Virus record (IMG/VR): IMGVR_UViG_3300023202_000142 | Coordinates: 121,325-185,324 of that record | Strand: one strand, 5' to 3' | DNA length: 64,000 bases | Source: a virus | Part shown: positions 34,371 through 64,000 of the stretch, piece by piece | How the letters are laid out: each line of letters begins with the position of its first letter | Numbering within the stretch: position 1 is the stretch's first letter | The notes under the pieces: model-generated | What the model saw: only the letters and a program-made list of their open reading frames with translations | What the model was told of the DNA's origin: nothing | The model's database searches: none | Translations under genes and position numbers: made by a program

Positions 34371-34579
34371 AGAGCGATGCGGCTGATTGGTTGATGCAGC
34401 GGACCCGTGAACTGGTTTGCGACCACGCTCGTGAGCAACTGGAGTCGGATCAGGTCCACCTTGCGGGTCTCGGGATGGAGAACCCCCTTCTGGACAGAAT
34501 GCTGGAACTTGACGATGTCGAGATGCTGCGTGAACTGGCAGCGGTTTCTGCATCGCCGCCGATCGAGGAGGAAGAGTGA
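34367..34579 (+). CDS. hypothetical protein
   Basis: ATGA-coupled 70 aa ORF. Confidence 0.5.
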   Translation: MKSDAADWLMQRTRELVCDHAREQLESDQVHLAGLGMENPLLDRMLELDDVEMLRELAAVSASPPIEEEE

Positions 34580-34824
34580 GCCTAATCGATCGAATCGATG
34601 CGATGCTGGAAGCGAATCCCTATCATGATCGTGGCGGTGAGTTCGTTAGTAAGGCCAAGGTCCGCGCTGGTACATATTCACTCGGACGTAAGCGACACAT
34701 CGTAAGACGCGACGGCGACAAGCTGAAGAAAGCTGTGGCTGATACTGGGTGTGGGCGCGATGCTCGACGCGATGACGGCGATGTCAGGTGTTGGGACAAC
34801 GAGGTCAAGGACGATACCGAATGA
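34576..34824 (+). CDS. small protein with putative head-targeting leader and NPYHD..G.F motif
   Basis: MSLIDRIDAMLE|ANPYHDRGGEF; GGAGG RBS. Confidence 0.6.
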   Translation: MSLIDRIDAMLEANPYHDRGGEFVSKAKVRAGTYSLGRKRHIVRRDGDKLKKAVADTGCGRDARRDDGDVRCWDNEVKDDTE

Positions 34825-35042
34825 TCTACGCTGTGGGAGCTATCTGTTTCATCGTGGGGGTGCTTGCATCATGGTTGGCGCTCAGGGCTCGTTACGACGC
34901 CGACAGGGCAACTGTGTGGGTCGAACCCGCAGAAGAGGGGGTCGTGTTTCGATCTTTCGATGCTGACGCCGTAGAGCGCATCAAGCAGGCTCTTGACGGC
35001 GAGCGGTCCTACACCGTCATGCGTGTCACCCGGCCTGAGTGA
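34821..35042 (+). CDS. small single-TM membrane protein
   Basis: ATGA coupling; N-terminal hydrophobic helix. Confidence 0.55.
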   Translation: MIYAVGAICFIVGVLASWLALRARYDADRATVWVEPAEEGVVFRSFDADAVERIKQALDGERSYTVMRVTRPE

Positions 35043-35089
35043 TTGCATCGTTGGCTGAGTTGGACGAGACTACGCCGTAGGAGGAATTT

Positions 35090-35314
35090 GTGGCGATCTT
35101 TGTTCATCGAGCCTACGACCCGGCCGGGGAAGAGTACGTGTATTGGCGTGCCGAAGAGCTAGACCTGGACGGCACCTTCTATGCGGGTGCGCCAAGCTTC
35201 AACACCCTTGAGAATCCCGTCCTTATCCGTCGAATCCTCTCTGGGGTTGAGAATTCCTATGTGTACGAGCCTGTAACGCCAGGCACCTTGGTCGACCTCG
35301 AAGAGGTCTCCTGA
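35090..35314 (+). CDS. small virion protein homologous to N-terminus of next gene
   Basis: AGGAGG RBS; F+.R.+.P..W..E..G.FY.G.P.F..L shared with 35314 protein. Confidence 0.65.
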   Translation: MAIFVHRAYDPAGEEYVYWRAEELDLDGTFYAGAPSFNTLENPVLIRRILSGVENSYVYEPVTPGTLVDLEEVS

Positions 35315-38172: not shown

Positions 38173-39329
38173 TGCCAAACCTTAGCATTGACGGCGGGTT
38201 CTACTCCTATCTCGTGACACATTTATCGCGTGATAACGGAGAGCCGGGCTACGAGCCCGATCTTCCGGCGATGGATGCTTACATGATCGACCAGCGTGAC
38301 CGCTGGAAGTATGTCCTGGAGAATCAAAACGCCGGTCAGGATTGGTCGGTCGGCCGAGTCTTCAGGTGGGAGGGGGCCACGGATTACTACGCTTACGGCT
38401 TCGTTGTCAGTCTTCTGGATGGTGCCGGGGCTGCCACGGACCACGAGTTTCTGGTGGTGTACGGCGGCCCGGACATCGGTACTGGCGCCCGTCGCGCCGC
38501 CCCGGAGGACGTCTTCAGTGATGACGTCAGTGACTATTTCAGGGTCTCTGGAGGTATTAATTCTGAGGGGTTCATTGGGTATCACTACAACTACGCGGCG
38601 CTTTCTGACACCTACGACGTAGGCGCAGGCGCTGATGTCGATCCTCCCAGCACGAACCCTCACACGGACCCGGCAGGGTTTTTCCCAGACCCCGTAGCCC
38701 AGGAGGTTCCGTTCCTCCAGGGGACCATTCGGTCAGACTACAACAGGGTCACGTCCGGCAGCCCTTTGGATTGGCGTCACTGCTGGGTGGTCAACGGTGA
38801 CGAGCCCTTCATCGCATTCTACTCGAACTATCGTCTCTCGGCGCAGGTCAGGATTGGCGCCGTGCTGGGCGATATCCTGGTGGCCGAAGACCCCGGTGAT
38901 CTTCGAACCCAGGCGGGGATGCACTACACGACTCGAATGGGGCGGGAGTGGGATGGCGGTGATCAGTCACTTGGAGCATGGGCCATCAGCCAGAGGTTCG
39001 GTGACTCCAGGGCCTTCAATACGTTCATCCGGCACAACGATTTCAATGTCATCAATCAGCCCCGGGTCGATGGAACCTATGACCGGGATCGGGTTAAGAT
39101 TGCGAACACGAATGAGCACAAGGGCTACTTCAAGGAAGACATCATCGCGATTACGGGAACAGCGGCAGACTGGCCAGAGCCGGGCGGTGATCACAATGCG
39201 ACCTTCGAATGTGCTCACGGCTTACTTGTAAAGGTGATGCCAGAGATCGCTACCCCTTGGGTGGAGGGCCAGTCTCCCCCATTCAATGGCTGGCCGAAAT
39301 ATCCGCAGGACTTCAACAGGACGCAGTGA
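38172..39329 (+). CDS. paralogous virion protein family member 1 (no insert)
   Basis: LE.QNAGQDW.V.R.F.W, NQPR.DGTYD, KGY, PWVEG..PF.GWP. Confidence 0.7.
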   Translation: MPNLSIDGGFYSYLVTHLSRDNGEPGYEPDLPAMDAYMIDQRDRWKYVLENQNAGQDWSVGRVFRWEGATDYYAYGFVVSLLDGAGAATDHEFLVVYGGPDIGTGARRAAPEDVFSDDVSDYFRVSGGINSEGFIGYHYNYAALSDTYDVGAGADVDPPSTNPHTDPAGFFPDPVAQEVPFLQGTIRSDYNRVTSGSPLDWRHCWVVNGDEPFIAFYSNYRLSAQVRIGAVLGDILVAEDPGDLRTQAGMHYTTRMGREWDGGDQSLGAWAISQRFGDSRAFNTFIRHNDFNVINQPRVDGTYDRDRVKIANTNEHKGYFKEDIIAITGTAADWPEPGGDHNATFECAHGLLVKVMPEIATPWVEGQSPPFNGWPKYPQDFNRTQ

Positions 39330-40840
39330 TGCCCACCGAGTACGTTGATTTGGGGTATTACACCTCGCGCTACATGCAGACGTGGGGCAAAGGATTCCTG
39401 TACCGCCGGACGGAGGACGACTACTTCATCGACCTCTACGATCGCATCAGGGTTCCACTTGAAGCCGAGAACAGCGGTCAAAACTGGGAGGTCAGTCGCT
39501 TGTTCAGGTGGATCGATGGCGGCGACAGGGCGTTTGGATTCGTTATCAAGCATCTCGACGCAGGTTCGCCGACAGGTCGTGAATGGTTTCTCTGGTGGGT
39601 CGGGCTCGACGGGACTGATAGCTGGGCAGACGGCTACCTTCTCTGGTTTGACCAGAGCACGCTGGGCACCTACTTTCGGGAACACAATCGTGTGGATGAT
39701 GCCACCCCGTTGGCTCGTGGGGGCCTTGGCATCCATTATCATGTAGGTGGTGTAGATGTTGCCGCCATCAACTCAATTGTGTTTTTCGGCAATGCGGTAG
39801 ACGGTGAGACCCTGACGATCGATGGGAAGACCTACACGCTCCAGGACAGCCTCACGGATGTCGATGGTAACGTGCAGATCGGAGCCCTCCCGGCGGACAC
39901 CGTTGACAATATCAGGGCAGCCATCAACCTCGACCCGGGCGCCGGCACGGCCTATGCGGCTTCGATGACGGTGCATCCAACCGTTAGCGCTACCGATGTA
40001 GATCTTCCGCCCACACTGGAGGTGGAAGCTAAGACTACCGGAATCGGAGGCAGCTCCATTGCGGTGTCTGAAACTTTGACGGCGGCCCGCTGGACGAAAG
40101 AGGATAGTCTGTATGGCGGCCGCTCCGCGACGACCTACGATGTCGGGGCGGGAAGCAATCTCGATCCACCGAATTCAGAGCCTCACATTAGCGCGACGGA
40201 TGCCGCGAATTTTATGCCGGACCCGGCCCTGACCCCACAGGCTCGCGGCGCTGTTCTCGCGATGGATGGTTTCCCCTCACAGGAAACGAACCGGATGGTG
40301 ATGGTCTACAACCATGAGGTGCCCTTCGTCGGGGCGTATCTTGCGGACCAGGACTCAACAGTTCCGAACAGTGTTGTCATTTCGGGCGACATCGCGATGC
40401 CTCGGGTCTCGTGGGACGTTTACCGAGAGGTCACAATCAGCCTCCGGGTTACTGCCCCTGATGATCTCGACACCACCTTCGACGGAAGGCCGGACGACTA
40501 CTACGGCATTCACACGTTAGATCCAGATGGCAACCAGGCTCTTCTGCAACTGGTCCCCGAATCCAATTCGACACAGGAAGACCAGCCCAGGACGGATGGG
40601 GATTTTGACCGTCGATCTCTCGTTCTGGTTGGGTCTGCGCTCGATAAGGGGTATGCAGACCCAGAGGTTGTAGCAATGCAGGGGGTCAGGGACTGGCAGC
40701 GTCAGGTAACCTTCCCTTCTGCGCATGGGCGTGCGCTGAAGTTTCATCGCAGCCTTGTTATCCCTTGGGTGGATGGGGCGCCAGCCCCGTTCTACGGTTG
40801 GCCTCTGAATCGGCAGGAAATTCCGAACAGGACTGGGTAA
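39329..40840 (+). CDS. paralogous virion protein family member 2 (with insert)
   Basis: VDLGY, LEAENSGQNW, PTGREW, QPRTDG.FD, PWVDG.P.PFYGWP. Confidence 0.7.
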   Translation: MPTEYVDLGYYTSRYMQTWGKGFLYRRTEDDYFIDLYDRIRVPLEAENSGQNWEVSRLFRWIDGGDRAFGFVIKHLDAGSPTGREWFLWWVGLDGTDSWADGYLLWFDQSTLGTYFREHNRVDDATPLARGGLGIHYHVGGVDVAAINSIVFFGNAVDGETLTIDGKTYTLQDSLTDVDGNVQIGALPADTVDNIRAAINLDPGAGTAYAASMTVHPTVSATDVDLPPTLEVEAKTTGIGGSSIAVSETLTAARWTKEDSLYGGRSATTYDVGAGSNLDPPNSEPHISATDAANFMPDPALTPQARGAVLAMDGFPSQETNRMVMVYNHEVPFVGAYLADQDSTVPNSVVISGDIAMPRVSWDVYREVTISLRVTAPDDLDTTFDGRPDDYYGIHTLDPDGNQALLQLVPESNSTQEDQPRTDGDFDRRSLVLVGSALDKGYADPEVVAMQGVRDWQRQVTFPSAHGRALKFHRSLVIPWVDGAPAPFYGWPLNRQEIPNRTG

Positions 40841-42048
40841 TGGCAAACGTAGTGATCGACATGGGGTTCATGTCCAACGACCAACGCTTCATCATTCAGG
40901 CGTCGGATGGCGACTATTTCGCGACGCAGGCCGGTGGCTCAAACGATCCATGGCCAACTGACTATGATGGGATTGCTCAGATCCACCCTTTCATTACGTG
41001 GATCAGGGACCGCATCAAGACGGTAATGGAAGCAGAGAACGGCGGGAACAACTGGCGTGTTAGCCGAATCGCGGAATGGGAAGGGAGAGTGCAATCGGGT
41101 CGTGGGCACTACGGGTACGCCTTCAAGATTGAACAACTGGATGAGGGGAGTCCGACCGGTCGAGAGTGGTGTATGTTTTTCAGCGGCCTGCAGGAGGATT
41201 CCACGTCAGCAGCTCCGGTGAACATCGAAGAGGCGGTTGGGGATATCGCTGGATATGACTCCTACTTCGTGCCCTGGTTCCACAGCAGCAATGGCTTTGT
41301 TGCCATGCAGTACAACACGGGCGGACTGTCGACGAGCTGGGATTTCGATGCGTCATTGGTGGACACCTTCAACGTTGCCAATGACTTCAACGCCCCCAAC
41401 ACCAACCCATACTCTCAGGACACTTCTTTCTTCCCCGACGACGGGATTCACCCCCAGGTCAGAGGGCATGTTTCCGGTGAGTGGAATCAGAATAGGAGCC
41501 AGGACCGCTGGGTGTTCATCTTCAACCACGACATCCCCTTTTGCGGATTCTATCGGGCGAAGCATCGTTCGAACTTCGTTCGTGAGGTCGTGATTATGGG
41601 GGATATCGTTGTCCCTCGTGTCAGCACTGACGATCGCCCGGACGGCTGGTTCTTCTACAGTATTGAGATGAGGGAGGGGGATATCACCGAGGACGGTGAG
41701 CGGCTCTATGCGATCAACCCGGACACGGACACGGAAAACTCCTTCCAGCCTGGCATCCTTCACACCGCTTACACGACAGCCAATCAGCCTCGCGGGGACG
41801 GCACGTACGATAAAGACGTCGTGAAGGTGGTGAACTCGAACATCGACAAGGGGTATCTCAACCCCGACCTGGTCGCGATCCAGGGGCCAACGACCTGGAT
41901 GAGGGACATGCTTTTCGACTCGCCAGAAGGCGCCTGCGTGAAGGTGACCGACGAGCTTGTCTTTCCCTGGACTACGACTGACCCTGTTTTCCCGGCGGGG
42001 TACCCGTCGGCTTGGTTTGCTCCTCGGATTCAGGATTCGGTGCCATGA
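40840..42048 (+). CDS. paralogous virion protein family member 3 (no insert)
   Basis: IDMGF, MEAENGGNNW, PTGREW, NQPRGDGTYD, KGY. Confidence 0.7.
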   Translation: MANVVIDMGFMSNDQRFIIQASDGDYFATQAGGSNDPWPTDYDGIAQIHPFITWIRDRIKTVMEAENGGNNWRVSRIAEWEGRVQSGRGHYGYAFKIEQLDEGSPTGREWCMFFSGLQEDSTSAAPVNIEEAVGDIAGYDSYFVPWFHSSNGFVAMQYNTGGLSTSWDFDASLVDTFNVANDFNAPNTNPYSQDTSFFPDDGIHPQVRGHVSGEWNQNRSQDRWVFIFNHDIPFCGFYRAKHRSNFVREVVIMGDIVVPRVSTDDRPDGWFFYSIEMREGDITEDGERLYAINPDTDTENSFQPGILHTAYTTANQPRGDGTYDKDVVKVVNSNIDKGYLNPDLVAIQGPTTWMRDMLFDSPEGACVKVTDELVFPWTTTDPVFPAGYPSAWFAPRIQDSVP

Positions 42049-42450: not shown

Positions 42451-44094
42451 ATGCCAAACGATTTTGTGGATTTGGGGTACCTGTCCCGAGATCTCTGGAG
42501 TCCAGACGCTGGGTCTGCGTCATACGTAGGCATCTCAGTCACGAATGGGCAGGCCCACATCGAGGACCAGTACAACCGTATCAAATCAGCACTTGAGGCG
42601 GAGAACAGCGGGCAGAACTGGGAGGTTGGCCGCCTCTTCTATATGTTCGAGGATGGTGAGAGATTTCTTGGGTGGGTCATCAAACATCTCAACGCAGGCT
42701 CGCCGACGGGTCGTGAATGGCTGATGCTGTTCCCCGGCAACGACACCAGCTTGAATCTGAGCAACATCACTTCCTTTATGAGCTGGACCGCCGGTGCCTC
42801 GGACACGGTACACCCGGCCAACTGGTATGTGCCCAACATTGTCGAATTCGCAGTAGACCAACAGGTGGATGACGGCGGGTACACTAATGGTACGGTTGTG
42901 ATGCACTATCACAGCGGTGGGCTGGAAGCTGCCTCGGCACGCGCTGTGTATGAGCTTGTCGGGCAGCCTGCGGATGGCGAGACGGTCGAGATCGACGGGA
43001 AGACCTACACCTTCGAAGCGGCACTCACGGATGTCGATGGCAACGTGCAGATCGGAGGAGACGCTGAAGAGAGCCGGGACAACCTCCTGGCGGCGATCAA
43101 CCTGGATGCTGAGACCCGGGTTGGTGCTGATGGCCCTGGCTCGGCCTATGCGGCTTCGATGACCCTGCACCCGACCGTGGAGGCCGAAGCCTATTACTAC
43201 AGGACCAGCGGATCTACTTTTCAGCTCCGGCAGTACGGAGAGGACGACTACCTTTTCGTGCGAGCGAAGACCGGAGGGGTGGCTGGGAATTCGATCAGCA
43301 TCTCAACGACGGTTGATAATGGGTCATGGGGAGGCAAGACCACTCTCGAAGCTGGTGCTGCCACAAACTCCTATGGGGTTGGCTCCGGGGCAGATTTCGA
43401 TCCGCCAGAGTTTATTCCTCGTGAGTACGACGTCACGCTGTTTTTCCCCGATTTTGGTGCCAAGCCTTATCCGCGCGGGGGAGGGTGGCAGCTCCCGTCA
43501 TCGGGTCGAGGTGCGAACAAGATGCTCTGCATTTGGAACCACGAGGTTCCCTTCGTGGGTCTCTACGCGGGCATCAGGATGGCATCAGGTATCAGTCGGA
43601 TCGTTCTGGCGGGGGATATCATCGAGCCCCGTGTTTCTGCTGATCCCTACCCAGAGGGCTTCTTTTCGTGGTGGGCAGACACTGTCGGTTGGAACTCCGG
43701 TCAGACGCTTGTGGATCCCGGGATCGACCAGGAGGCCAAGTTCGTCCATCACCTCACCGAAAACGGTTTCCAGGATCACACCGAGAACGCGAGCACCGGG
43801 GGGTTCAACATGGCTCTTCATAACGAGTTTGATTCACGGAATCAGCCGAGAGCGGACGGCACGTGGGACCTGGACCCCATTAAGCTCTATGGGGCCTACG
43901 AGGTGAAGGGGTATTTGAGGAAGGATGTTGTGGGGCAGCAAGGGCTTTATCAGGGGCCACAGCACATGCTTTTCGATGCCAGGTACGGCAAGGCGATTCA
44001 GATTGACTATCGCACCGTTGTCCCCTGGGTGGATGATGCTCCGGTTCCGTTCTACGGGTGGCCTCTCGACCCTCAACCGTTCTACAGCGACTAG
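42451..44094 (+). CDS. paralogous virion protein family member 4 (with insert)
   Basis: VDLGY, LEAENSGQNW, PTGREW, NQPRADGTWD, PWVDD.P.PFYGWP. Confidence 0.7.
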   Translation: MPNDFVDLGYLSRDLWSPDAGSASYVGISVTNGQAHIEDQYNRIKSALEAENSGQNWEVGRLFYMFEDGERFLGWVIKHLNAGSPTGREWLMLFPGNDTSLNLSNITSFMSWTAGASDTVHPANWYVPNIVEFAVDQQVDDGGYTNGTVVMHYHSGGLEAASARAVYELVGQPADGETVEIDGKTYTFEAALTDVDGNVQIGGDAEESRDNLLAAINLDAETRVGADGPGSAYAASMTLHPTVEAEAYYYRTSGSTFQLRQYGEDDYLFVRAKTGGVAGNSISISTTVDNGSWGGKTTLEAGAATNSYGVGSGADFDPPEFIPREYDVTLFFPDFGAKPYPRGGGWQLPSSGRGANKMLCIWNHEVPFVGLYAGIRMASGISRIVLAGDIIEPRVSADPYPEGFFSWWADTVGWNSGQTLVDPGIDQEAKFVHHLTENGFQDHTENASTGGFNMALHNEFDSRNQPRADGTWDLDPIKLYGAYEVKGYLRKDVVGQQGLYQGPQHMLFDARYGKAIQIDYRTVVPWVDDAPVPFYGWPLDPQPFYSD

Positions 44095-45826: not shown

Positions 45827-46849
45827 ATGCTTTTCGAACGGAACATCCAGAAAACGGAAACGGGTCATACCGTTTTGTTTGAGTTCCCGGTCACCGTGGC
45901 GCCATCGAAGGGCCTCCTGAAGCGCCTCAAGGGGCCTCTGGGCAAATGGGTGACGATTCGAGACGTTGTGTACCGACCCAGGAGAGAACGTCTGGAGCTG
46001 TACGTCAGCGGCCCCGTGGCGCCCGAGGATATTGCCACAATTGTCGAGTCTGAGTTGTCTCGCAAGCTGCGGCGAGACCGTGAGTGGGCCAGGGTGTTCG
46101 GGAACATCAACTGGCGCCGCGACGTCGGCGTTGACATCCTGGAAGGTATTGTTTTTCAGGTCGACGTTCTCTTGGAGCGACAGGCGCTAACCAAGACGAA
46201 CATTTGTTCGACGTCGACCAGGAAAGCGCGCTCGGTCGCTGAAAAGTTCTTTGCCGCCCGCGGTGACACCGTCGACGAGGTGTTTGGCGACTTCGACAAG
46301 TCTTTTGCGGCCCTGAAGCGGACCTGCCAAAAAGCGCTTGATCTCCCTCGGTTCAAGATGCCGGTCATCGAACCCGAGGACATGAAGGATTTTCATCGAC
46401 GCCTCAAGACGGGGAGGCTCGACATCTTTCAGCCCTGGGCGCGTGGTCATCTGTTTACGCCCGAGAAGATTTCGCCGTCGCGAGGTGGTGATGAGTGGGT
46501 CACTCTGGGATTCCAGGACGGCGAGATCCGGGACGATGTCGTCAAGGCCCGTTGGACGCGCATCGCGGCCAAGAAGTTGTTGCCGACACAGTCGCAGATC
46601 TGGTTGGAGAAGGTGCTCAACGATATTGTCGACTGGGGCCGACCACACCCCTGGTCGGGCGCCACAGAGCGAACCATTATCACTTCGAAGGAAGGCTATA
46701 TCCTTGATGGCCACCATCGATGGACTCGGGTTTACCTGACGAACTGGGATGCCAAGATGAAGGTGCTCCAGGTCCCGATCGACATTGATACCCTTGTCGA
46801 CGTCGGCCGCACCTATGGCCTCGCCATCGGAAACACGCCGAATCGATAG
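45827..46849 (+). CDS. two-domain protein with C-terminal ParB/sulfiredoxin-like domain
   Basis: KLLPTQSQI..IITSKEGYILDGHHRW; internal VDVLLE|R site; start uncertain (45767 or 45827). Confidence 0.7.
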   Translation: MLFERNIQKTETGHTVLFEFPVTVAPSKGLLKRLKGPLGKWVTIRDVVYRPRRERLELYVSGPVAPEDIATIVESELSRKLRRDREWARVFGNINWRRDVGVDILEGIVFQVDVLLERQALTKTNICSTSTRKARSVAEKFFAARGDTVDEVFGDFDKSFAALKRTCQKALDLPRFKMPVIEPEDMKDFHRRLKTGRLDIFQPWARGHLFTPEKISPSRGGDEWVTLGFQDGEIRDDVVKARWTRIAAKKLLPTQSQIWLEKVLNDIVDWGRPHPWSGATERTIITSKEGYILDGHHRWTRVYLTNWDAKMKVLQVPIDIDTLVDVGRTYGLAIGNTPNR

Positions 46850-46938: not shown

Positions 46939-47148
46939 ATGACCACTCGAACGAAGAACTCTCCCCCCGCATGGATGATGGCTGAGCACAACGCCCGTGA
47001 GCGCGATCGCGCCTGGGATGCTGCTCGACCTCGCGTCCGCGCGACGATGTATGCTCCGGGCCGCGACGAAACTGTGGTCGAGGACCCGCGGAGCCACACC
47101 CCGGTCGAAGAGCCTTCGGTCCGCGGTGTCACCACGATGAAAATGTGA
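46939..47148 (+). CDS. small early hypothetical protein
   Basis: GAGGAGGTAGCG ATG. Confidence 0.6.
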   Translation: MTTRTKNSPPAWMMAEHNARERDRAWDAARPRVRATMYAPGRDETVVEDPRSHTPVEEPSVRGVTTMKM

Positions 47149-47170
47149 ACCCCACACGAGGAGGTAGTAA

Positions 47171-47464: not shown

Positions 47465-47553
47465 GCCTGACTGCACCCGGGTGCGAATCTCGGGCTTGAT
47501 TTGGAGCCACCCCGGGTTGACAATGCGCGACATGTCCCTCAGAGGAGAAAGAC

Positions 47554-47943
47554 ATGGACGCAGAAATCAGCCCGTGGGTGGTTCTTCTTACTGACGCCAT
47601 CATTCCGTTGGCCGTCGTGTTTCTGACCCCGCTTCTGATCGCCCTGGCAAACAGGGCGATCGCGGCCTTTCAGGAGAAGACAAAGGTCGAACTGTCGAAG
47701 GAGCAGCGTGCTGCAATGGAGCAGGCGGTTCATGAGGCGATTCACTACGCCGAGGAACAGGCCAGGAAAGCGCTGAAGGGCGACAAGGAACTCGATGGTG
47801 AATCGAAGATGCAGGCTGCTCTCGACTACCTGAAGGCCAAGGCCGACGTCCTGGAGCTGGATGACCTTACCGAGGCTCAGGCGGACAAGCTGGCAGCCCT
47901 CGTCGAAGCTAAACTGTATCGAGAGCGCAAGGAATTGGAATGA
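47554..47943 (+). CDS. LL-H-family-like phage holin
   Basis: One N-terminal TM, then AV.EAI.YAEEQ, G.SK..AA..Y, IEA.+-type C-terminus. Confidence 0.65.
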   Translation: MDAEISPWVVLLTDAIIPLAVVFLTPLLIALANRAIAAFQEKTKVELSKEQRAAMEQAVHEAIHYAEEQARKALKGDKELDGESKMQAALDYLKAKADVLELDDLTEAQADKLAALVEAKLYRERKELE

Positions 47944-48368
47944 GCATCGAGACACTGATTGAAGGCTATGTTCTCGGGGAGGCTTCGCTTCGCCAGACCT
48001 ATGACAAGGCCGGCAAAGAGGCCAAAAAGAACTTCGAGGACCCCCGGGCCGCCAAGAAGGTGATCATCGATCTCGCCAAGAGATCCCACTGGGTCTACGA
48101 CTTCATGAAAAAGCTCTCCACCAACCTGGAGCGCTCGAAGCGAGGCTCGGCGGCAGCAGGCGCTTTCCCTCATGAGCCGAACCGCAAGGTCACGAAGATG
48201 TATGATGACCTGCTCAACTTGTTCGTCGACGTGAGGACGGCTCTCAAGAGGAAGGGGTTCGCCAGTGACGAGCGAAATGATCGCATGCAGGAGATGCTGC
48301 AGCGAGTTCAGAAGGGCGACCTTCTACAACGCGAGACCGCCAAGAAGCTGCTTCGCAAGATGTACTGA
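47940..48368 (+). CDS. basic protein with putative head-targeting leader
   Basis: MSIETLIEGYVLGE|A then K/R-rich helical domain. Confidence 0.6.
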   Translation: MSIETLIEGYVLGEASLRQTYDKAGKEAKKNFEDPRAAKKVIIDLAKRSHWVYDFMKKLSTNLERSKRGSAAAGAFPHEPNRKVTKMYDDLLNLFVDVRTALKRKGFASDERNDRMQEMLQRVQKGDLLQRETAKKLLRKMY

Positions 48369-48388
48369 CGGCGGACGACGAGGAAGCG

Positions 48389-48874
48389 ATGACCCAGACC
48401 GGATTCACTGGTCACCCACGCTTTGGTCTCAGCGATGACCCCGGGGACTACGAGGACGACGACATGGAAGAAAGCCTGGTACAACGCATTGAAAGCCTGC
48501 TGACCCCGTCTCCTGCCAACGGAGACCTCGTCGTAGGCATCAGGAACCACCAGGTCCGTGTGTGGCGCGTCGAGGGCACTGAGCGCAATCTGGTGGCCTA
48601 CAGCGACACTCATGGCGGCACCAGGTATTTCAACCATGTCAGCCCTGCGGCGTCGACGGTGGCGCCTGATTTCACCGAGGCTAGAGCGGTGCGCAATGGT
48701 GGCGCCTCGGAGCTTCTCCAGCACTACGCGCCCGATCTCTTCGAGCGGGCCAATGAGGTCTGGGTTGAAGGTGAGGACGAAAAGGACGACGAAGGCAAGG
48801 CGCTGCAGCCCAAGAAGAAACTGAAGCGGCGCAGAAAGAAGACCAAGAGCAAGGTCGATGAAGGTTGGGGTTGA
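48389..48874 (+). CDS. hypothetical protein with ESLVQRIESLL motif and basic C-tail
   Basis: GAGGA RBS; KKKLKRRRKKTKSK. Confidence 0.6.
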   Translation: MTQTGFTGHPRFGLSDDPGDYEDDDMEESLVQRIESLLTPSPANGDLVVGIRNHQVRVWRVEGTERNLVAYSDTHGGTRYFNHVSPAASTVAPDFTEARAVRNGGASELLQHYAPDLFERANEVWVEGEDEKDDEGKALQPKKKLKRRRKKTKSKVDEGWG

Positions 48875-48899
48875 CAGCGTGCACGGAGTTCACTAGATC
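48871..48899 (+). promoter_or_regulatory. promoter-like P3 (TTGACA-GCGTGCACGGAGTTCAC-TAGAT)
   Basis: Family spacer present; weaker -10. Confidence 0.6.
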
Positions 48900-48908
48900 T
48901 GGTCCTGT

Positions 48909-49155: not shown

Positions 49156-49434
49156 ATGCTGGTTTCTTACGTCCAAGCCCTTCTCGAAAAGAAGATGTCG
49201 CCGTTCAAGCGCAAGGATACGCTGAACGACGGCCCTAGGGGCGGCGAGAACGCCAAGGCGAGCAAGTGGGACTGCAAGTGCAAAAACTACAAGTGCACGT
49301 GCACAGATGATGAGGGCAACAAGAAGTCCTTCAAGATCAAGAAGGGCTACAAAAAGAAGTACAACAGAGAGTACAAGGGGCACATGCCGTACAAGCGTTG
49401 GCGCTCCAAGGTGCGAAAGGACAGGGATGGGTGA
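49156..49434 (+). CDS. very basic Cys-cluster protein with putative head-targeting leader
   Basis: MLVSYVQALLE|KK; CKCKNYKCTC; Lys/Tyr-rich. Confidence 0.65.
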   Translation: MLVSYVQALLEKKMSPFKRKDTLNDGPRGGENAKASKWDCKCKNYKCTCTDDEGNKKSFKIKKGYKKKYNREYKGHMPYKRWRSKVRKDRDG

Positions 49435-49762
49435 GATAACCGAGACGGTCGATCGCGTATTGACCGAGCGTGCCCTGAAGGGTTCTGTGGATGTCGCGAA
49501 GGCGAAGCTGTTGGAGCCCAGGGATGTCTTCGGTCGCCAGACGCGTAAGAAGGTGAAATCCGCTCAGATCTGGTCCAGGTACAACTTTGAACTGGACGGC
49601 GGTGCGACTGTCGAGCTTAGGCCGTCGACCAAGGCTGGTAGGTTCAACGCTAAGGTCCAGACTCCTGGTTCTGCCAAGGATCTGACGTTCCTGGGCAAGA
49701 CCCCCAAGGAGCTGCGGAAGATATTTGGGGACCCGGCGGTCCGCGTCAGAATGAAGGTGTGA
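49427..49762 (+). CDS. basic protein with putative head-targeting leader
   Basis: MGEITETVDRVLTE|RA. Confidence 0.6.
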   Translation: MGEITETVDRVLTERALKGSVDVAKAKLLEPRDVFGRQTRKKVKSAQIWSRYNFELDGGATVELRPSTKAGRFNAKVQTPGSAKDLTFLGKTPKELRKIFGDPAVRVRMKV

Positions 49763-49763
49763 G

Positions 49764-50948
49764 ATGGTAGTCGAAGACGTGCAGGTGCTCTTGGAGCGAA
49801 TGTCTCCCCAGGAGGCTCGACGCATTCTCGGGCTCAGTGGTGGGTATCCGTCCAAGGACGAGGTTCAGAAGGCGTGGAAGAAACTGGCCTTCAAGAATCA
49901 CCCGGATCGAGGCGGCGACCCCGACAAAATGTCGAAGATCAACCAGGCACGCGATGTCCTGCTTGGCAAGACGAGTCGTCGCCCTGGAGGGTCGACGCGG
50001 TCATCGACGTCGTCGAACTGGAAGCCTTCGGGCTCAAGTTCCAGCAGGCAGAAGCGCAAAAAACCTGAACCGCCACCTCAAGCGCCCGGAGAGGACCTGA
50101 AGACGGCGATGCGGGCGATGCCTCATGGTGTTGAGTGGATGTTCAGGACTGAGCGCCTGGTGTCCACTGAGCGCAGGTATGCGACGGCGCCAGACGGCTC
50201 GACATACTCACGCGAGATTGAGGGCGTGATCCTCTACGGCCAGACTGGATCTCATCACGTTTTCCTGTCCCTGAAGCGGACGATTCACAAGACTCGTGGC
50301 GGCAGCTCGAATCGGGGCCACGAGGTGTTCGTGACGACATCGCCGCTTCGAACAGATCTTCAGAGGTTCGGGCTCAAGACGATCAAGAGCCTCAAAGATC
50401 ACATGGGGCTCAAGAACTCTGGTCGTCTCCAGTTCTATCGAATCTCGACCGAGGGCGTGAAGAAAGCGGTGACCAGGGGCCAGGCTGGAGACATCCTCTA
50501 CGGGCCGACAGGGGCCTCGAAGACGAAGTTCAGCTTCAAGGGTGTCGTCGAGGCCGCAACGGGCGATGGTGGCCCCAGCGGTGGTGACAGGAAGCACCAG
50601 GTCGAAATGGTTGGCAAAGGGCTGGTCGGCGATGAGTTCGATAAGCGCAAAGAACGGTTCGGCCGCACCAACCGGGTGACGGGTTCAAGGTGGACGATCT
50701 TCGTTGACGGCAAGGAGGTCCGAGAACTCACGGTTGACGAAATCGAGGCCCTGGTTGGTAAGCACTGGTTCGATGCTGTCTACAGCTCCAACAAGTACTT
50801 CGGTGAGCGCGTCAACATCACACGTAAGCGAGGTGGTGGTCGCATGCGTGCCCCCAGCGGAAAGAGGATGCTGAAGATGTTGGCCGACAATCTCGAAGCC
50901 GGGCAGCTCAAACGGTACGTTGAGGCGACGGTCCGTGCGTTCGGCTGA
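49764..50948 (+). CDS. J-domain (DnaJ-like, HPD) protein with long basic C-terminal region
   Basis: ARRILGL..EVQKAWKKLAFKNHPDRGGDPDKMSKINQARDVL. Confidence 0.85.
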   Translation: MVVEDVQVLLERMSPQEARRILGLSGGYPSKDEVQKAWKKLAFKNHPDRGGDPDKMSKINQARDVLLGKTSRRPGGSTRSSTSSNWKPSGSSSSRQKRKKPEPPPQAPGEDLKTAMRAMPHGVEWMFRTERLVSTERRYATAPDGSTYSREIEGVILYGQTGSHHVFLSLKRTIHKTRGGSSNRGHEVFVTTSPLRTDLQRFGLKTIKSLKDHMGLKNSGRLQFYRISTEGVKKAVTRGQAGDILYGPTGASKTKFSFKGVVEAATGDGGPSGGDRKHQVEMVGKGLVGDEFDKRKERFGRTNRVTGSRWTIFVDGKEVRELTVDEIEALVGKHWFDAVYSSNKYFGERVNITRKRGGGRMRAPSGKRMLKMLADNLEAGQLKRYVEATVRAFG

Positions 50949-51361: not shown

Positions 51362-51416
51362 CACCGTGCACAGCGTGCACATACTGAAGGTGCCGGGGCG
51401 GTTACCCCACCGTCCC
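51358..51416 (+). promoter_or_regulatory. promoter P5 (TTGACA-CCGTGCACAGCGTGCA-CATACT) plus hairpin with TACCCC loop
   Basis: Read directly. Confidence 0.85.
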
Positions 51417-51432
51417 CACTGAGGAGGTAGCG

Positions 51433-51693
51433 ATGGAGGAACTTTTCGAGAAATTGATTGCCGCGGGTTTCATCAGGACCTCGACTCTCGCGGTCAGCAC
51501 AGCCCGTTCCGATGAGCCCGGGTCCGTGATGGTCGACGGCATCACCTACGACGGTCACTTCGATCTCAATGTTTACGTCGCCAAGGACTCGCGAGATGAG
51601 TACGGAATCCGCGACCACCACCACCACCGGGTCGAAGGCGGCGCCGTCGACGAACTGGTGGCTGAGATCCTTGAGATCTGGGAGGCCGTCTGA
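51433..51693 (+). CDS. early hypothetical protein
   Basis: GAGGAGGTAGCG ATG. Confidence 0.7.
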   Translation: MEELFEKLIAAGFIRTSTLAVSTARSDEPGSVMVDGITYDGHFDLNVYVAKDSRDEYGIRDHHHHRVEGGAVDELVAEILEIWEAV

Positions 51694-51971
51694 TGGGTGT
51701 TCGACGAGACGCACGATTCTGGGCACGCCACTTCATCGAGGAAGATGGCAACCACTTCTCAATGCCGGTCGATCGGTACGTCGAGATGCTCGACGACCAC
51801 CGTGAGTTCGTGATCGATGGTGACGACATCAGTCGCGGAGACTACGTGTTCCGGCATCTCGCCTACTCTACCCTGGTCGGTGCCGTTCGGGCAGCCGCCC
51901 GGGAGATGAGCAGGTATGACGCAGACTCAGACGAGGTAACCCCACCACCACGAGGAGGTAGCAATGGCTGA
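51693..51971 (+). CDS. early hypothetical protein
   Basis: TGATG coupling. Confidence 0.6.
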   Translation: MGVRRDARFWARHFIEEDGNHFSMPVDRYVEMLDDHREFVIDGDDISRGDYVFRHLAYSTLVGAVRAAAREMSRYDADSDEVTPPPRGGSNG

Positions 51972-52356
51972 ACTCATTCATAAATACACTCGCGCCCAGG
52001 CCATCGAGGATGGCGTCCTCGTTGATGTCAACGAGATGGCCACCGAGGCCGGGATCACCTTTCACGCCGCGATGACGTCGTCACTCTACGATGTCATGGT
52101 CCCCACCGACGCAATGGACGGCTACGGCCAGTCCGTCGAGGGTCGTCTCTGGGATTGTTTGTGGATGCTCCACATGGCGATTCGCGGATCGATCCCCTCG
52201 ACCGTCGAGAGCTACGGTCCTGGCCAGGAGCTGCGTTACAAGTTCCTGGCTCTGAACGACGACCTCGAAACAGTCGAGGTTGAGGTCAAGGCCATTACGG
52301 GACCCGGTGACAACATGGAGCCGGTCATCACGCTGATGCACCCGCACGAAGACTAA
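51964..52356 (+). CDS. DUF6573-like mobile-element protein
   Basis: YTRAQAIEDGVLVDV..A.EAG..GQS.EGRLWD.L.M recognised from memory. Confidence 0.6.
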   Translation: MAELIHKYTRAQAIEDGVLVDVNEMATEAGITFHAAMTSSLYDVMVPTDAMDGYGQSVEGRLWDCLWMLHMAIRGSIPSTVESYGPGQELRYKFLALNDDLETVEVEVKAITGPGDNMEPVITLMHPHED

Positions 52357-52367
52357 CGGAGGACTCA

Positions 52368-52949
52368 ATGACTATGAAAACGATTCTGCTGGACGTAGAC
52401 GGCGTCTTGGCCAACTGGATGAAGTCAGCATGTCGTGCCATCGGCGAGGACTACAGCGCCATCATGGGTCGCTTTGACGAGGTCGACTTCGACAGTCGCG
52501 GCGAGCACTGGGGAATCGAGGCGCTGGGCGACATCGACCCCGGTGAACTCTGGGATGCCATTCACGCCGAGGGACGTTCGTTCTGGGCGGAGCTGGAGCC
52601 CTACCCCTGGGCGATCGAGCTTTACGAGGCATGTCGCGCCGAGGCCCCGACGTACATCCTGACCAGTCCGTCTCGACATCACTCGTCGCCGGCAGGAAAG
52701 GTCGAGTGGATGGATCGTCACCTCGGTGGTGGCGAACCCTTCCGGGATTTCCTGATTGGGTCCCCAAAGGAACTCTGCGCCCGCCCGGGCTCACTCCTCA
52801 TCGATGACCGCCCAAGGAATTGCGACCGATTCCGACGCGCCGGCGGTTCGGCGATCTTGTTTCCGACTCCCTGGAATCATCACTGTGAACATGCCAGTGA
52901 CCCATTGGCATTCGTTATGCCCCGCATCAAGCATTGGCTCGCGGGTTGA
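52368..52949 (+). CDS. HAD-superfamily 5'(3')-deoxyribonucleotidase (NT5C-like)
   Basis: LLDVDGVLANW, ILTSP, GKVEWM..H, K..LLIDD. Confidence 0.85.
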   Translation: MTMKTILLDVDGVLANWMKSACRAIGEDYSAIMGRFDEVDFDSRGEHWGIEALGDIDPGELWDAIHAEGRSFWAELEPYPWAIELYEACRAEAPTYILTSPSRHHSSPAGKVEWMDRHLGGGEPFRDFLIGSPKELCARPGSLLIDDRPRNCDRFRRAGGSAILFPTPWNHHCEHASDPLAFVMPRIKHWLAG

Positions 52950-52988
52950 CAGCGTGCACTACGTGCACATACTTTGGGTGCCCACCCA
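52946..52988 (+). promoter_or_regulatory. promoter P6 (TTGACA-GCGTGCACTACGTGCA-CATACT) plus TGGGT/ACCCA hairpin
   Basis: Read directly. Confidence 0.85.
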
Positions 52989-53012
52989 GCACACCACATA
53001 GGAGGTAGCGAC

Positions 53013-53648
53013 ATGAGCAAACGATACGAGAAATCCTACGGCGGGAAATACGATGCCGACCTCGACATTGTCGAGATCGCCAAGCGCGTGAAGAGTGAGA
53101 TCCGCGAGGCGAGCAAGAACGGTGATCTTCCTGAGATGAAGGTCTCGGTGACCACCGACCGCTACAGCGGCGGCCAGAGCCTCAGTGTCCGCATCAAGAC
53201 ACTCCCGGAGGGCTTCGAGGTTTGCAATCCAGAATACGTCGAGAAGATGGTCGAGAACCCCCATGGGTATGACCCGGTCCCCCGCTACAGCGAGAAGATG
53301 CGTGACGTCATCTCGAAGGTCGAGGGCATCGTTGGCGCCTACAACTACGACGGCTCCGATTCGATGATCGACTACTTCGACGTCAACTTCTACACCCACG
53401 TCAATCTCGATGATGATTCGAGCTACTTCCGGTCCGCCAAAGAAGCCTACATCGCGGCGAAGAACTCAGAACCCGAGTTCGACGACACCGTACTGGCGCG
53501 CCGGATTTCGTCCCTGATCGTCGAGGTCGACGATGTTCTCGCTGACATGGATGGCCATCCCCTGGCGGAAGAGGTCAGCCGGGCAGGTACCGCGCTTGAG
53601 CGGATCTACATCAAGATGACTGCTCACATGGAGGATGAAGCGGCATGA
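53013..53648 (+). CDS. LPD29-like (large polyvalent protein-associated) domain protein
   Basis: IAKRVK..K.SV..YSGG.S and YNYD.SD.M.DYFDVNFY; GGAGGTAGCG RBS. Confidence 0.6.
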   Translation: MSKRYEKSYGGKYDADLDIVEIAKRVKSEIREASKNGDLPEMKVSVTTDRYSGGQSLSVRIKTLPEGFEVCNPEYVEKMVENPHGYDPVPRYSEKMRDVISKVEGIVGAYNYDGSDSMIDYFDVNFYTHVNLDDDSSYFRSAKEAYIAAKNSEPEFDDTVLARRISSLIVEVDDVLADMDGHPLAEEVSRAGTALERIYIKMTAHMEDEAA

Positions 53649-62708: not shown

Positions 62709-62721
62709 CCAGGAGGACTCG

Positions 62722-62946
62722 ATGTTCTGCGAACGATATGACAACGAAGAAAGTGACCTTGTGACGGTGCTGTGTGAACGTCACCACTCGCCGCCGCGTG
62801 AGAAGATCGAGGACCTGGGTGATCTGGTCCAGGTCTACGACACCGAGACCAATGTTGCGCCGCTTCCGGGCGCGACGAACAAGGTCGCCAAGAAGGTCAC
62901 AGCATACGTCTACAGGCGCCGCCAGTTGCTCGTGGAGTCCGAGTAG
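62722..62946 (+). CDS. hypothetical protein
   Basis: AGGAGG RBS. Confidence 0.6.
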   Translation: MFCERYDNEESDLVTVLCERHHSPPREKIEDLGDLVQVYDTETNVAPLPGATNKVAKKVTAYVYRRRQLLVESE

Positions 62947-62968
62947 GACCTGTCCTATACTTGGCGCC

Positions 62969-63853
62969 ATGAAGCGGTCAGAAATCCTCCAGGAGGCGGC
63001 CAAGGGGCTCCAGGACGTTAAGCGTCAGGGATTCTATCTCGTCTACGATCATTCTGGGCGCGATGTTGAGGTCGCACTTCTGTATCCCCACGACTGGGGC
63101 TCCTCGAAGGGGTTTGTCGCCATGGGCTACCTCAAGGCGCTTCCGTCGAAGAACGTTGGTGGCGCGTCAGGACAGAAAGACACCTGGGTGGTTTACGAGG
63201 TCGGCGCCAAGAAGGGCTGGGGGCCCTTGCTCTACGATGTGTTGATGGAGTCCGTGTATCCCGACTGGATCGAGCCGCACCCTGGGCACACCAAGGCGGC
63301 AGAGAAGGTCTGGAAGTTCTATCGGAATCGGCGCAGAGATGTTGAGGTCGTTGACGGCCGACTGCGAAAGAAGCCGACCAGGCTGAAACGGTTCGCGATG
63401 ACACTGAACAAGTTTGGCTCTTCGAAGGCTGTTCGGAACTGGGTCGGCGAACCGAAGAACTACCGTAGCATCGGCATGGATTTCGGGGTCGATTATCCTG
63501 CCATCCCGGGCGCCTGGGAGTCCGTGGTCCAAGCCGTCGATCGGTTACTCGCCGAAGGGGTCTCTACGATGTGGAATGGGACTCAGATGACCCCTGGCCT
63601 CTACTTCCATCGCAGCAACGATACGCACTGGCGCTCGTCTCTGCAGGTCGAGTTTCAGCACTTGAGGCCCAAGGACAACGTCAGGGTGGCTGGAGAACGC
63701 ATCTTCATTCAGGAGGTGCATCGATTCCATGCCCTGGGCTATGATCCCGACACCCGGGAGCAAAGAGAGCTGCGCTATTTCCCCAAGGAAGACATCGTGG
63801 CCCTCAGCGACTCGACCGGCGTGATTGCAACTTCAGAAGTGATGGCACCATGA
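62969..63853 (+). CDS. two-domain protein: GNAT-like domain plus C-terminal domain after an internal leader-like motif
   Basis: VGAKKGWGPLLYD..AAEKVW; internal SVVQAVDRLLAE|G. Confidence 0.6.
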   Translation: MKRSEILQEAAKGLQDVKRQGFYLVYDHSGRDVEVALLYPHDWGSSKGFVAMGYLKALPSKNVGGASGQKDTWVVYEVGAKKGWGPLLYDVLMESVYPDWIEPHPGHTKAAEKVWKFYRNRRRDVEVVDGRLRKKPTRLKRFAMTLNKFGSSKAVRNWVGEPKNYRSIGMDFGVDYPAIPGAWESVVQAVDRLLAEGVSTMWNGTQMTPGLYFHRSNDTHWRSSLQVEFQHLRPKDNVRVAGERIFIQEVHRFHALGYDPDTREQRELRYFPKEDIVALSDSTGVIATSEVMAP

Positions 63854-64000
63854 ACATCAACAGCCTGGTCGAGCATGTCGAAGCCCTCTTGGCTGAGGGC
63901 ACCTTTGCCACTGGCGGACTGCGTATGAGCTTGAGGAAGTGGGCTGACAAGGTCGCGCGTAAGAACAAGACGAGCTGGGACCTTCAGTCCAGTAATCGTG
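63850..64000 (+). CDS. 3'-truncated protein with putative head-targeting leader
   Basis: MNINSLVEHVEALLAE|G then basic sequence. Confidence 0.65.
   Translation, partial: MNINSLVEHVEALLAEGTFATGGLRMSLRKWADKVARKNKTSWDLQSSNR

What the first reader, a model, noticed from the sequence alone, without database searches (positions are those of the whole stretch)
34576..64000. Dispersed protein family sharing an LL(x)E leader: candidate capsid-loaded, protease-matured cargo system
Seen: unrelated ORFs carry the same amphipathic helix ending in Glu. These are MSLIDRIDAMLE|A (34576), MSIETLIEGYVLGE|A (47940), MLVSYVQALLE|K (49156), MGEITETVDRVLTE|R (49427), MVVEDVQVLLE|R (49764), MKRSEILQE|A (62969) and MNINSLVEHVEALLAE|G (63850), plus a Glu-less variant ESLVQRIESLL (48464). 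Internal copies sit at apparent domain boundaries: FQVDVLLE|R (46154-46180) and SVVQAVDRLLAE|G (63521-63559). What follows the Glu is usually very basic or a recognisable effector fold (J-domain, GNAT-like, ParB-like, Cys cluster, NPYHD..G.F). Known: T4 gp21 and phiKZ-type prohead proteases cut after Glu, and T4 internal proteins use a short N-terminal capsid-targeting sequence. Inference: this phage packages and matures a modular kit of injected effectors or DNA-condensing proteins, including polyproteins. Five consecutive genes (47940-50948) form a cargo cluster.
Basis: partly seen in the sequence, partly recalled or inferred. Interest (0 to 1): 0.85.

Follow-up and report, generated by a model that had tools for sequence, protein, structure and literature searches.

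The report
Shared head-loading tag on phage proteins
An uncultured 185-kb T4-like phage starts about 22 otherwise unrelated, mostly basic proteins with the same 12-residue helix ending in the cutting motif of its own head protease, so these are probably proteins loaded into the capsid as T4 loads its internal proteins, though neither loading nor cutting has been measured.

Summary
The window is the last 64 kb of a 185,324-bp uncultured T4-superfamily myovirus. A leader M-x-[LIV]-[LIV]-E-x-[IV]-D-x-L-L-E heads 16 genes strongly and about 6 weakly genome-wide. Four or five more copies are internal.

- **In the window:** 34576, 49427 and 63850 are strong. 49764, 49156 and the internal copies at 46154 and 63521 are credible. 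47940, 48464 and 62969 cannot be told from chance.
- **Protein-level conservation:** codons vary freely, upstream DNA is unrelated, and the cargo proteins share nothing beyond residue 16.
- **Protease:** the phage encodes a gp21-type prohead protease (Peptidase_S77), whose T4 homologue cuts after L/I-x-E. The leader's last residue is Glu in 19 of 19.
- **Capsid protein:** its propeptide keeps L-x-E sites in four related genomes.
- **Cargo:** basic (median pI 9.7 against 5.2). Recognisable domains include HicA, DarA_C, a J-domain and a ParB/Srx-like domain.
- **Relatives:** they put a different, lineage-specific leader on about 22 genes. The same cargo families carry different leaders in different lineages.

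Best reading (about 0.65): a T4-style capsid targeting sequence removed by the head protease. It is a much enlarged variant of a known kind. Nothing shows packaging, cleavage or injection directly. This scan has noted similar systems in other T4-like phages.

The parts
34576..34824 (+). 82-aa basic ORFan, GTG start; leader occupies codons 1-12 (34576-34611) and ends L-E|A
   Evidence: 11.8 bits with a profile trained only outside the window; no homologue in 5.8 billion proteins; no Pfam or PHROG match
45827..46849 (+). 340-aa two-part protein: unplaced N-terminal 108 aa, internal leader, then a ParB/Srx-like domain with invariant DGHHR
   Evidence: 169 homologues of residues 119-340; AF2 pLDDT above 90 over most of 125-340; best fold matches are sulfiredoxin, ParB-N and Noc but weak, E about 0.4
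46154..46180 (+). Internal leader copy ending L-L-E|R; no start codon before it; predicted helix 102-120 of low confidence between the two parts
   Evidence: Domain homologues G001_187, a G002 gene at 151948 and P0002 carry an N-terminal leader at this position; codons read; model
47940..48368 (+). 142-aa basic protein (pI 10) with a weak leader-like N-terminus
   Evidence: Not among the top profile hits; regex-level match only
48389..48874 (+). 161-aa protein with a Glu-less leader-like stretch from 48464; both 48389 and 48464 have a GAGGA ribosome site, so the start is ambiguous
   Evidence: not recovered by either profile
49156..49434 (+). 92-aa Lys/Cys-rich basic protein with leader ending L-L-E|K
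   Evidence: 53% identical homologue with a clearer leader lies right after the capsid gene in relative L032; pI 10
49427..49762 (+). 111-aa basic protein (pI 10.9) with leader ending L-T-E|R
   Evidence: 9.7 bits with the outside-only profile
49764..50948 (+). 394-aa protein: leader ending L-L-E|R, J-domain (residues 21-73), long basic C-terminal part
   Evidence: Pfam DnaJ 6.3e-07, above cut-off; homologues elsewhere carry other leader types before the same J-domain
62969..63853 (+). 294-aa protein: GNAT-like lead for residues 1-148, internal leader, about 97-aa C-terminal part; its own N-terminus is not a convincing leader
   Evidence: Atlas structure matches to 160-200-aa viral proteins over residues 1-148; no Pfam or PHROG match
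63521..63559 (+). Internal leader copy ending L-L-A-E|G, at the boundary after the GNAT-like part
   Evidence: 4.0 bits, fourth best hit in the window; its only similarity to the outside-window protein g123 is this motif, 9 of 15 identical
63850..64000 (+). 5' end of a gene cut by the contig end; leader ending L-L-A-E|G
   Evidence: 11.8 bits with the outside-only profile; translation

Best explanation
The shared N-terminal helix is a T4-style capsid targeting sequence joined to a cleavage site.

Inferred mechanism:
1. While the prohead assembles, the amphipathic 12-residue leader docks the protein onto the scaffolding core. The core is probably the long coiled-coil C-terminal half of the 568-aa protease-scaffold protein.
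2. When the gp21-type serine protease is activated, it cuts after the terminal Glu of L-L-E.
3. The leader is lost. The mature, mostly basic proteins stay in the head with the DNA and enter the next cell with it.
4. Internal copies act as joints that release two modules from one precursor.
5. Each lineage of this phage clade has its own leader. Cargo genes are exchanged between lineages and acquire the local leader.

Shown: the motif, its restriction to N-termini, its conservation at protein level, the protease family, the invariant Glu, the basic bias, and the combinations of leaders and cargo.

Inferred: docking, cleavage, retention and injection.
For: - T4-type head module: Portal_T4, Peptidase_S77 (4.5e-14; aligns to T4 gp21 chain 5JBL, E = 1.5e-06) and Gp23.
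- gp21 cuts after L/I-x-E, and T4 internal proteins carry 10-19-residue targeting propeptides (PMC9026906). The T4 sequence is MKTYQEFIAE, on highly basic internal proteins (PMC8442874).
- The leader ends in Glu in 19 of 19 and never Asp, while the inner acidic position is Asp in 13 of 19.
- Two L-x-E sites in the capsid protein propeptide are conserved across four genomes at 48% identity.
- A 99-aa very basic leader protein lies directly before the protease. This is the slot of T4 genes 67 and 68 (T4 gene order is from my own knowledge). It has homologues in the relatives.
- Leader genes sit right after the capsid gene in L032 and G002.
- Cargo is basic in G000 (pI 9.7 against 5.2, p = 5e-8) and also in G002, which has a different leader (9.8 against 6.6, p = 1.6e-4).
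- The leader is an add-on. The HicA, DarA_C and DnaJ domains begin at residues 14-21, with profile starts projecting to about 12-17.
- Leaders are lineage-specific. Each profile finds 22-30 sites in its own genome and 2-4 elsewhere, none of those at a start codon.
- The same cargo carries different leaders.
- 70% of 113 ParB-like homologues have [LIVMF]-x-E at the junction, against 11% in background windows.
Against: - No virion proteome, no cleavage data and no expression timing exist for this phage.
- Most leader genes lie among small genes and nucleotide-metabolism genes, not in the head module.
- I could not define a late promoter. There is no TATAAATA and no enriched motif.
- Twenty-two cargo species is far above the few known in T4.
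- Some cargo is acidic or large (pI 4.7 for a 370-aa protein).
- One leader type seen in other lineages ends in Ala rather than Glu, so cleavage may not be universal.
- The junction statistic counts related sequences, not independent events.
- The leader has no sequence similarity to the T4 sequence beyond the pattern.
Confidence: 0.65

Rival explanations
1. The helix is a docking tag for some other common partner, such as a chaperone, a host factor or an oligomerisation hub. It is not removed by the head protease and has nothing to do with the capsid.
For: Leader genes are dispersed among non-structural genes. No late promoter was found. One leader type in other lineages lacks the terminal Glu. 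One cargo is itself a J-domain co-chaperone.
Against: It does not explain the invariant terminal Glu within L-x-E. It also leaves unexplained the match to the specificity known for the phage's own protease family, the basic bias in two lineages, and the leader genes in the core-protein slot and next to the capsid gene.
Confidence: 0.15
2. The leader is a protease-removable pro-sequence. It keeps toxic or DNA-binding proteins such as HicA inert until the head protease is active, without serving as a capsid address.
For: Cargo includes a HicA toxin domain with no recognised HicB beside it, and many strongly basic proteins. The cleavage motif is present.
Against: A 12-residue helix placed before unrelated folds is unlikely to inhibit all of them. 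The T4 protease acts inside proheads (PMC9026906), so a substrate must be there anyway.
Confidence: 0.1
3. The leader is the recognition sequence of a modifying enzyme. This would resemble a RiPP system, or the radical-SAM tag the scan proposed for phage RB43.
Against: The genome, estimated 90% complete, has no Radical_SAM match, while all 14 control genomes do. No candidate enzyme lies beside the leader genes.
Confidence: 0.03
4. The shared N-terminus is a by-product of a repeated DNA or RNA element at gene starts, such as a promoter-hairpin-RBS cassette, a recombination site or an sRNA target.
For: The genome does carry about 27 genes with a private ribosome-site tag and repeated promoter cassettes (earlier notes).
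Against: Upstream DNA of the leader genes is unrelated. 64% of identical-residue column pairs use different codons, against 59% expected from codon usage. None of the 27 tagged genes is a leader gene.
Confidence: 0.02

Closest known systems
Phage T4 internal proteins IPI, IPII, IPIII (and Alt) with the capsid targeting sequence, processed by prohead protease gp21
   Same: - Same protease family (S77).
- A short N-terminal propeptide shared by otherwise unrelated, highly basic proteins.
- The propeptide ends in hydrophobic-x-Glu.
- The cargo set varies between relatives while the tag is kept (PMC9026906, PMC3012670, PMC8442874).
   Different: - The leader sequence is different and 12 rather than 10 residues long.
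- About 22 tagged genes, against a handful in T4.
- Cargo includes HicA, DarA_C, J-domain and ParB/Srx-like domains.
- Internal copies sit at domain joints.
- The protease is fused to a long coiled-coil region.
- Nothing has been shown experimentally here.
Inner-body and ejection proteins of giant phages phiKZ, 201phi2-1 and SPN3US, cut by gp175/gp245
   Same: Many head proteins (19 in 201phi2-1) are processed after Glu by a diverged gp21 homologue. Many of them are packaged with the DNA and ejected (PMC9026906; PMC7411985 abstract).
   Different: The motif there is S/A-x-E, with no shared targeting leader described. Those phages have a different capsid lineage and virion RNA polymerases. Here the motif is L-x-E behind a common helix.
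Phage P1 Dar (defence against restriction) head proteins, DarA and Hdf
   Same: One leader protein carries a DarA_C domain (Pfam 3.8e-07). The Dar proteins are tied to head morphogenesis and anti-restriction (PMC12810830 abstract).
   Different: Only the small C-terminal domain is shared. P1 is not T4-like and has no such common leader as far as I know.
Polyvalent proteins of phages and conjugative elements (Iyer, Burroughs, Anand, de Souza, Aravind 2017; from my own knowledge, not read here)
   Same: The domain repertoire overlaps: DarA-related, ParB-like, and SprT/zincin-like in relative G002. They share the idea of proteins delivered with the DNA.
   Different: Those are giant multi-domain chains. 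Here most cargo is a single small gene with its own leader, and only four or five proteins have two parts.

Membership tests
T4-type capsid targeting sequence / internal protein system | Phage encodes a gp21-type prohead protease (Peptidase_S77) | tested here: met
   PF03420 4.5e-14, 52.8 bits against cut-off 27. phrog_207 5e-44. Aligns to T4 gp21 chain 5JBL at E = 1.5e-06, with His in G-E-L-D-H-P and Ser in G-V-S-S-R-G where the deposited chain has Ala.
T4-type capsid targeting sequence / internal protein system | Short (10-19 aa) N-terminal propeptide shared by otherwise unrelated proteins | tested here: met
   16 strong and about 6 weak N-terminal copies. No similarity among 21 cargo proteins beyond residue 16.
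T4-type capsid targeting sequence / internal protein system | Propeptide ends in the protease motif L/I-x-E | tested here: met
   Glu in 19 of 19, preceded by a hydrophobic pair. The same motif is conserved in the capsid protein propeptide.
T4-type capsid targeting sequence / internal protein system | Sequence similarity of the leader to the T4 sequence MKTYQEFIAE | tested here: not met
   By inspection, the consensus M-x-[LIV]-[LIV]-E-x-[IV]-D-x-L-L-E shares only the hydrophobic-x-Glu end. More T4-like leaders ending Y-L-I-E occur on homologous cargo in other lineages.
T4-type capsid targeting sequence / internal protein system | Cargo proteins are basic | tested here: met
   Median pI 9.7 against 5.2. 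Repeated in relative G002: 9.8 against 6.6.
T4-type capsid targeting sequence / internal protein system | Proteins are found in the virion with the leader removed, and the leader suffices to load a foreign protein | not testable with these tools
   The phage is uncultured and no proteome is available.
phiKZ-type inner-body / ejection proteins | Cleavage motif S/A-x-E | tested here: not met
   Position -3 from the cut is Leu, Ile, Val, Phe or Met, not Ser or Ala.
Tag recognised by a radical-SAM maturase | A radical-SAM enzyme encoded with the tagged genes | tested here: not met
   No PF04055 match in the genome; 14 of 14 control genomes match.
PeSL-like promoter / leader DNA cassettes | Nucleotide-level repeat covering the gene start | tested here: not met
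   Upstream DNA is unrelated. Synonymous codons are as varied as genome usage predicts. No overlap with the 27 RBS-tagged genes.
Polyvalent proteins | Very long chain of many effector domains | tested here: not met
   Leader proteins are 51-437 aa with at most two recognisable parts. The overlap in domain repertoire (DarA_C, ParB-like) is only a resemblance.

The most novel reading that the evidence does not exclude
A whole clade of environmental T4-like phages uses lineage-private address labels. Each lineage has its own 9-20-residue leader, matched to its own scaffold and protease. About 8% of its genes carry that leader and are loaded into the capsid and injected. The cargo includes a HicA RNase toxin, a J-domain co-chaperone, anti-restriction-type domains and DNA-condensing basic proteins. 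Cargo genes move between lineages and are re-labelled. Two-module precursors are cut apart at internal labels.
Probability: 0.4. Interest if true: 0.75.

Novelty: new variant of a known kind. Interest (0 to 1): 0.62.

Why it matters
If the reading is right, one can read the probable injected proteome of an uncultured phage from its sequence alone: every gene that starts with the lineage's leader. That gives a ready list of candidate early-acting proteins, most of them of unknown fold. It includes anti-defence and host-takeover proteins.

It would also extend the T4 targeting principle from a few internal proteins in T-even phages to a large, exchangeable cargo set in distant relatives.

The lineage-specific leaders offer natural material for studying how a targeting peptide and its scaffold receptor change together. 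They could also serve for protein loading into engineered T4-type capsids in laboratory strains.

Tried and rejected
- **Near-identical phage record:** none in the phage collection.
- **T4 late promoter:** TATAAATA is absent. A k-mer search of structural-gene upstream regions found only the ribosome site. Expression timing stays open.
- **Motif finders:** my first EM finder timed out. The vectorised one drifted to diffuse motifs in G000, G001 and G003 but found the G002 leader cleanly. Single-linkage clustering at BLOSUM score 20 was too permissive. Profile searches replaced both.
- **DNA-level cassette:** rejected.
- **Radical-SAM tag:** rejected.
- **Paralogous family:** rejected.
- **The palindrome GCACCCGGGTGC:** seen upstream of two leader clusters but found at 11 sites of all kinds, so it is not specific to them.
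- **Cargo annotation:** Pfam and PHROGs leave most cargo unnamed, in G000 and in G002.
- **Fold of the ParB-like domain:** Foldseek gave only weak matches.
Full report
**What the DNA is.** The window is the last 64 kb (121325-185324) of a single 185,324-bp virus record at 59% G+C. The record is classed as linear and about 90% complete. It has no near-identical record among deposited phages. My own gene calls give 294 genes.

The head module lies 7-15 kb before the window. It holds:
- a large terminase;
- a T4-type portal (PF07230, 1.7e-52);
- a 453-aa acidic-then-basic protein;
- a 99-aa very basic protein;
- a 568-aa protein with an N-terminal Peptidase_S77 domain (PF03420, 4.5e-14) and a long coiled-coil rest;
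- a Gp23-type major capsid protein (PF07068, 3.6e-63).

The protease aligns with the solved T4 gp21 chain 5JBL (E = 1.5e-06). The capsid protein's best matches among deposited phages are below 35% identical. This is therefore a distant member of the T4 superfamily.

- A profile of the motif searched against all six frames gives 18 top hits. Sixteen follow an initiator codon directly and two are internal.
- To avoid circularity I built a profile from six window leaders only and searched the other 121 kb. It found 9 hits of 5 bits or more, against 0.7 in shuffles. Six of them were at residue 2-3 of a called gene.
- The reverse test used a profile from leaders outside the window. It recovers 63850, 34576 and 49427 strongly (9.7-11.8 bits). 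It ranks 63521, 46154 and 49764 as the next three hits of the window, each weak alone.
- 49156 is a diverged copy. A 53% identical homologue in relative L032 has a clearer leader.
- 47940, 48464 and 62969 cannot be separated from chance. For 48464, both candidate starts have a ribosome site.

The genome-wide tally is 16 strong and about 6 weaker N-terminal copies, roughly 7% of genes. There are also four or five internal copies.

**What level is conserved?** The protein.
- The 70 bases upstream of the leader genes have nothing in common.
- In the nine best leaders, 64% of column pairs with the same residue use different codons. Genome codon usage predicts 59%.
I found 27 such genes and none is a leader gene.
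- Beyond residue 16 the 21 leader proteins show no similarity to each other (best E = 0.029 in 210 pairs).
- Where Pfam recognises the cargo, the match begins soon after the leader. HicA_toxin matches from residue 16, DarA_C from 14 and DnaJ from 21, which projects to domain starts at about 12-17. The leader is thus an added module.

**Why the head protease is the likely partner.** Published work on T4 establishes two points. First, gp21 cuts after L/I-x-E. Second, the internal proteins carry 10-19-residue N-terminal targeting propeptides in which some residues serve targeting and others processing, and Asp in place of the final Glu blocks processing (PMC9026906). The T4 sequence is MKTYQEFIAE and its carriers are highly basic (PMC8442874).

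In this phage:
- The leader's last residue is Glu in 19 of 19 cases and never Asp. The inner acidic position is Asp in 13 of 19, so the two acids are not interchangeable at the end.
- The capsid protein's N-terminal region has two hydrophobic-x-Glu sites. Both are conserved in four genomes whose capsid proteins are only 48% identical. They bracket the position of the T4 maturation cut, judged by distance to the conserved P-N-L-I-A block.
- The protease itself begins with I-L-E.
- The 99-aa very basic protein just before the protease carries a leader. It shares a basic R-K-R-R-T-A-Y block with small proteins at the same place in relatives G001 and G003. In T4 that slot holds the core proteins gp67 and gp68. 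The T4 gene order is from my own knowledge.
- Leader proteins are strikingly basic: median pI 9.7 against 5.2 for the rest of the proteome, p = 5e-8.

**Relatives.** The capsid protein finds 24 related viral contigs. Three are complete genomes with terminal repeats: G001 (186 kb), G002 (192 kb) and G003 (198 kb). I fetched all three and called their genes.
- In G002, unsupervised motif search of N-termini returns a different leader, M-x-[LI]-[SA]-x-Q-L-x-E-A, on 22 genes.
- The two profiles are lineage-specific. The G000 profile gives 22 hits at 5 bits or more in G000 and 2-4 in the others, and the G002 profile gives 30 in G002 and 4 in G000. The G000 profile's hits in G001 and G003, and the G002 profile's hits in G000, are none of them at a start codon; one of the G000 profile's two hits in G002 is.
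- G001 and G003 have related forms of the G002 leader.
- The G002 leader proteins are again basic (9.8 against 6.6, p = 1.6e-4).
- Two G002 leader genes lie inside the head and neck module, one directly after the capsid gene. The 49156 homologue in L032 sits in the same position.

**Same cargo, different leader.**
- *HicA.* The HicA protein has homologues in G001 and G003 with their own N-terminal helices.
- *ParB/Srx-like domain of the 45827 gene.* It has homologues in G001 with an N-terminal leader, and in G002 with a leader once the start is corrected. In the large protein collection there are 169 homologues. Most are 230-260 aa, that is, the domain plus 8-30 residues.
- *Junction motif.* Of 113 homologues with at least 8 residues before the domain, 70% have [LIVMF]-x-E in the ten residues at the junction, against 11% of windows inside the domain. 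These sequences are related, so this is not a probability.
- *Leader types.* The leaders fall into distinct types. One is the G000 type at the very N-terminus (P0002). Another ends Y-L-I-E and looks much like the T4 sequence. There is also a 20-residue type ending I-L-T-E, the G001-3 type, and a type ending in Ala.
- *J-domain.* Homologues of the J-domain protein show the same picture, and at least two of these leader types recur there. Leader and cargo therefore combine freely, as expected of a portable address that must fit the local assembly machinery.

**Internal copies.**
- *46154-46180.* No start codon precedes this copy. It lies exactly where homologues have their N-terminal leader. In an AlphaFold model built with 59 sequences it is a low-confidence helix (102-120). 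It lies between an unplaced N-terminal part and a confident domain (pLDDT above 90 over most of 125-340).
- *Fold of that domain.* The best fold matches are sulfiredoxin, ParB N-domains and Noc, but they are weak (E about 0.4). The invariant D-G-H-H-R motif supports the assignment.
- *63521-63559.* This copy follows a part whose Atlas model matches stand-alone 160-200-aa viral proteins over residues 1-148, with GNAT only as a lead.
- *Outside the window.* A protein there has the same arrangement, and its only similarity to the 62969 protein is the motif itself.
- *Longer homologues.* Several longer homologues of the ParB-like domain also have an internal leader.

These are best read as joints of two-module precursors.

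**Rivals.**
- A DNA or RNA element is excluded.
- A radical-SAM recognition tag, proposed by this scan for a shared tag in phage RB43, finds no enzyme here.
- A common-partner docking helix unrelated to the capsid cannot be excluded. It leaves unexplained the invariant Glu, the match to the protease family's specificity, the basic bias and the head-module members.
- A pure pro-sequence role is possible for toxic cargo but does not fit a 12-residue helix on unrelated folds.

**What is missing.** There is no evidence on expression time. The T4 late promoter consensus is absent and I found no substitute. There is no proteome. Most cargo has no recognisable family, and the 34576 protein has no homologue at all.

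**Novelty.** The principle is known from T4: internal proteins are a diverse set with only a conserved targeting sequence (PMC3012670). I found no paper describing a set of this size, lineage-specific leaders exchanged on the same cargo, or internal copies, in distant T4-like phages. The library I could search is limited. This scan has reported similar systems in other uncultured T4-like phages, and two first-stage notes flagged the same leader elsewhere in this genome.

I class it as a new variant of a known kind, give the mechanism a confidence of about 0.65, and rate interest at 0.62.

Noticed in passing
window 4097-4108 and 47473-47484; nine more sites in the genome outside the window: The palindrome GCACCCGGGTGC, usually extended to a 14-mer, occurs 11 times in 185 kb, both inside genes and between them. 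About 0.24 copies are expected per 64 kb. I have no explanation for it.
   Followed up: partly
window 46939-47464 and 51020-53648 against 47554-50948: Genes with the private ribosome-site tag G-G-A-G-G-T-A-G-C (27 in the genome) flank the leader-gene block at 47554-50948 on both sides. None lies inside the block and no leader gene has the tag. The two gene sets look separately controlled.
   Followed up: partly
window 39329-40840, 40840-42048, 42451-44094: Three large adjacent genes (402-547 aa) begin with a second shared N-terminal motif of the form x-V-D-L-G-Y. They are possibly paralogous fibre or baseplate-attached proteins.
   Followed up: no
genome 112236-113942 (7.4-9.1 kb before the window): The prohead protease domain is fused to about 400 residues of coiled coil holding some 25 hydrophobic-x-Glu sites. 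This looks like T4 gp21 and the scaffold gp22 in one chain, and the fusion is conserved in relatives G001-G003.
   Followed up: partly
genome 44920-45162 (outside the window): A HicA toxin domain (Pfam 2.1e-16) carries the leader, and no recognisable HicB is next to it. Homologues in G001 and G003 carry their own leaders and a longer C-terminal part.
   Followed up: partly
L032:588-905: In a relative whose capsid protein is 93% identical, a homologue of the window gene at 49156 sits between the capsid gene and the next head gene. In this genome that gap is empty and the gene lies 55 kb away, so cargo genes move.
   Followed up: yes
window 48875-49155: A 281-bp G+C-rich gap with no called gene, between two genes of the leader block.
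   Followed up: no
window 47554-47943: The first gene of the leader block encodes a 129-aa protein with a hydrophobic N-terminal segment and a weak holin-family hit (PF09682, 0.0035, below cut-off).
   Followed up: no
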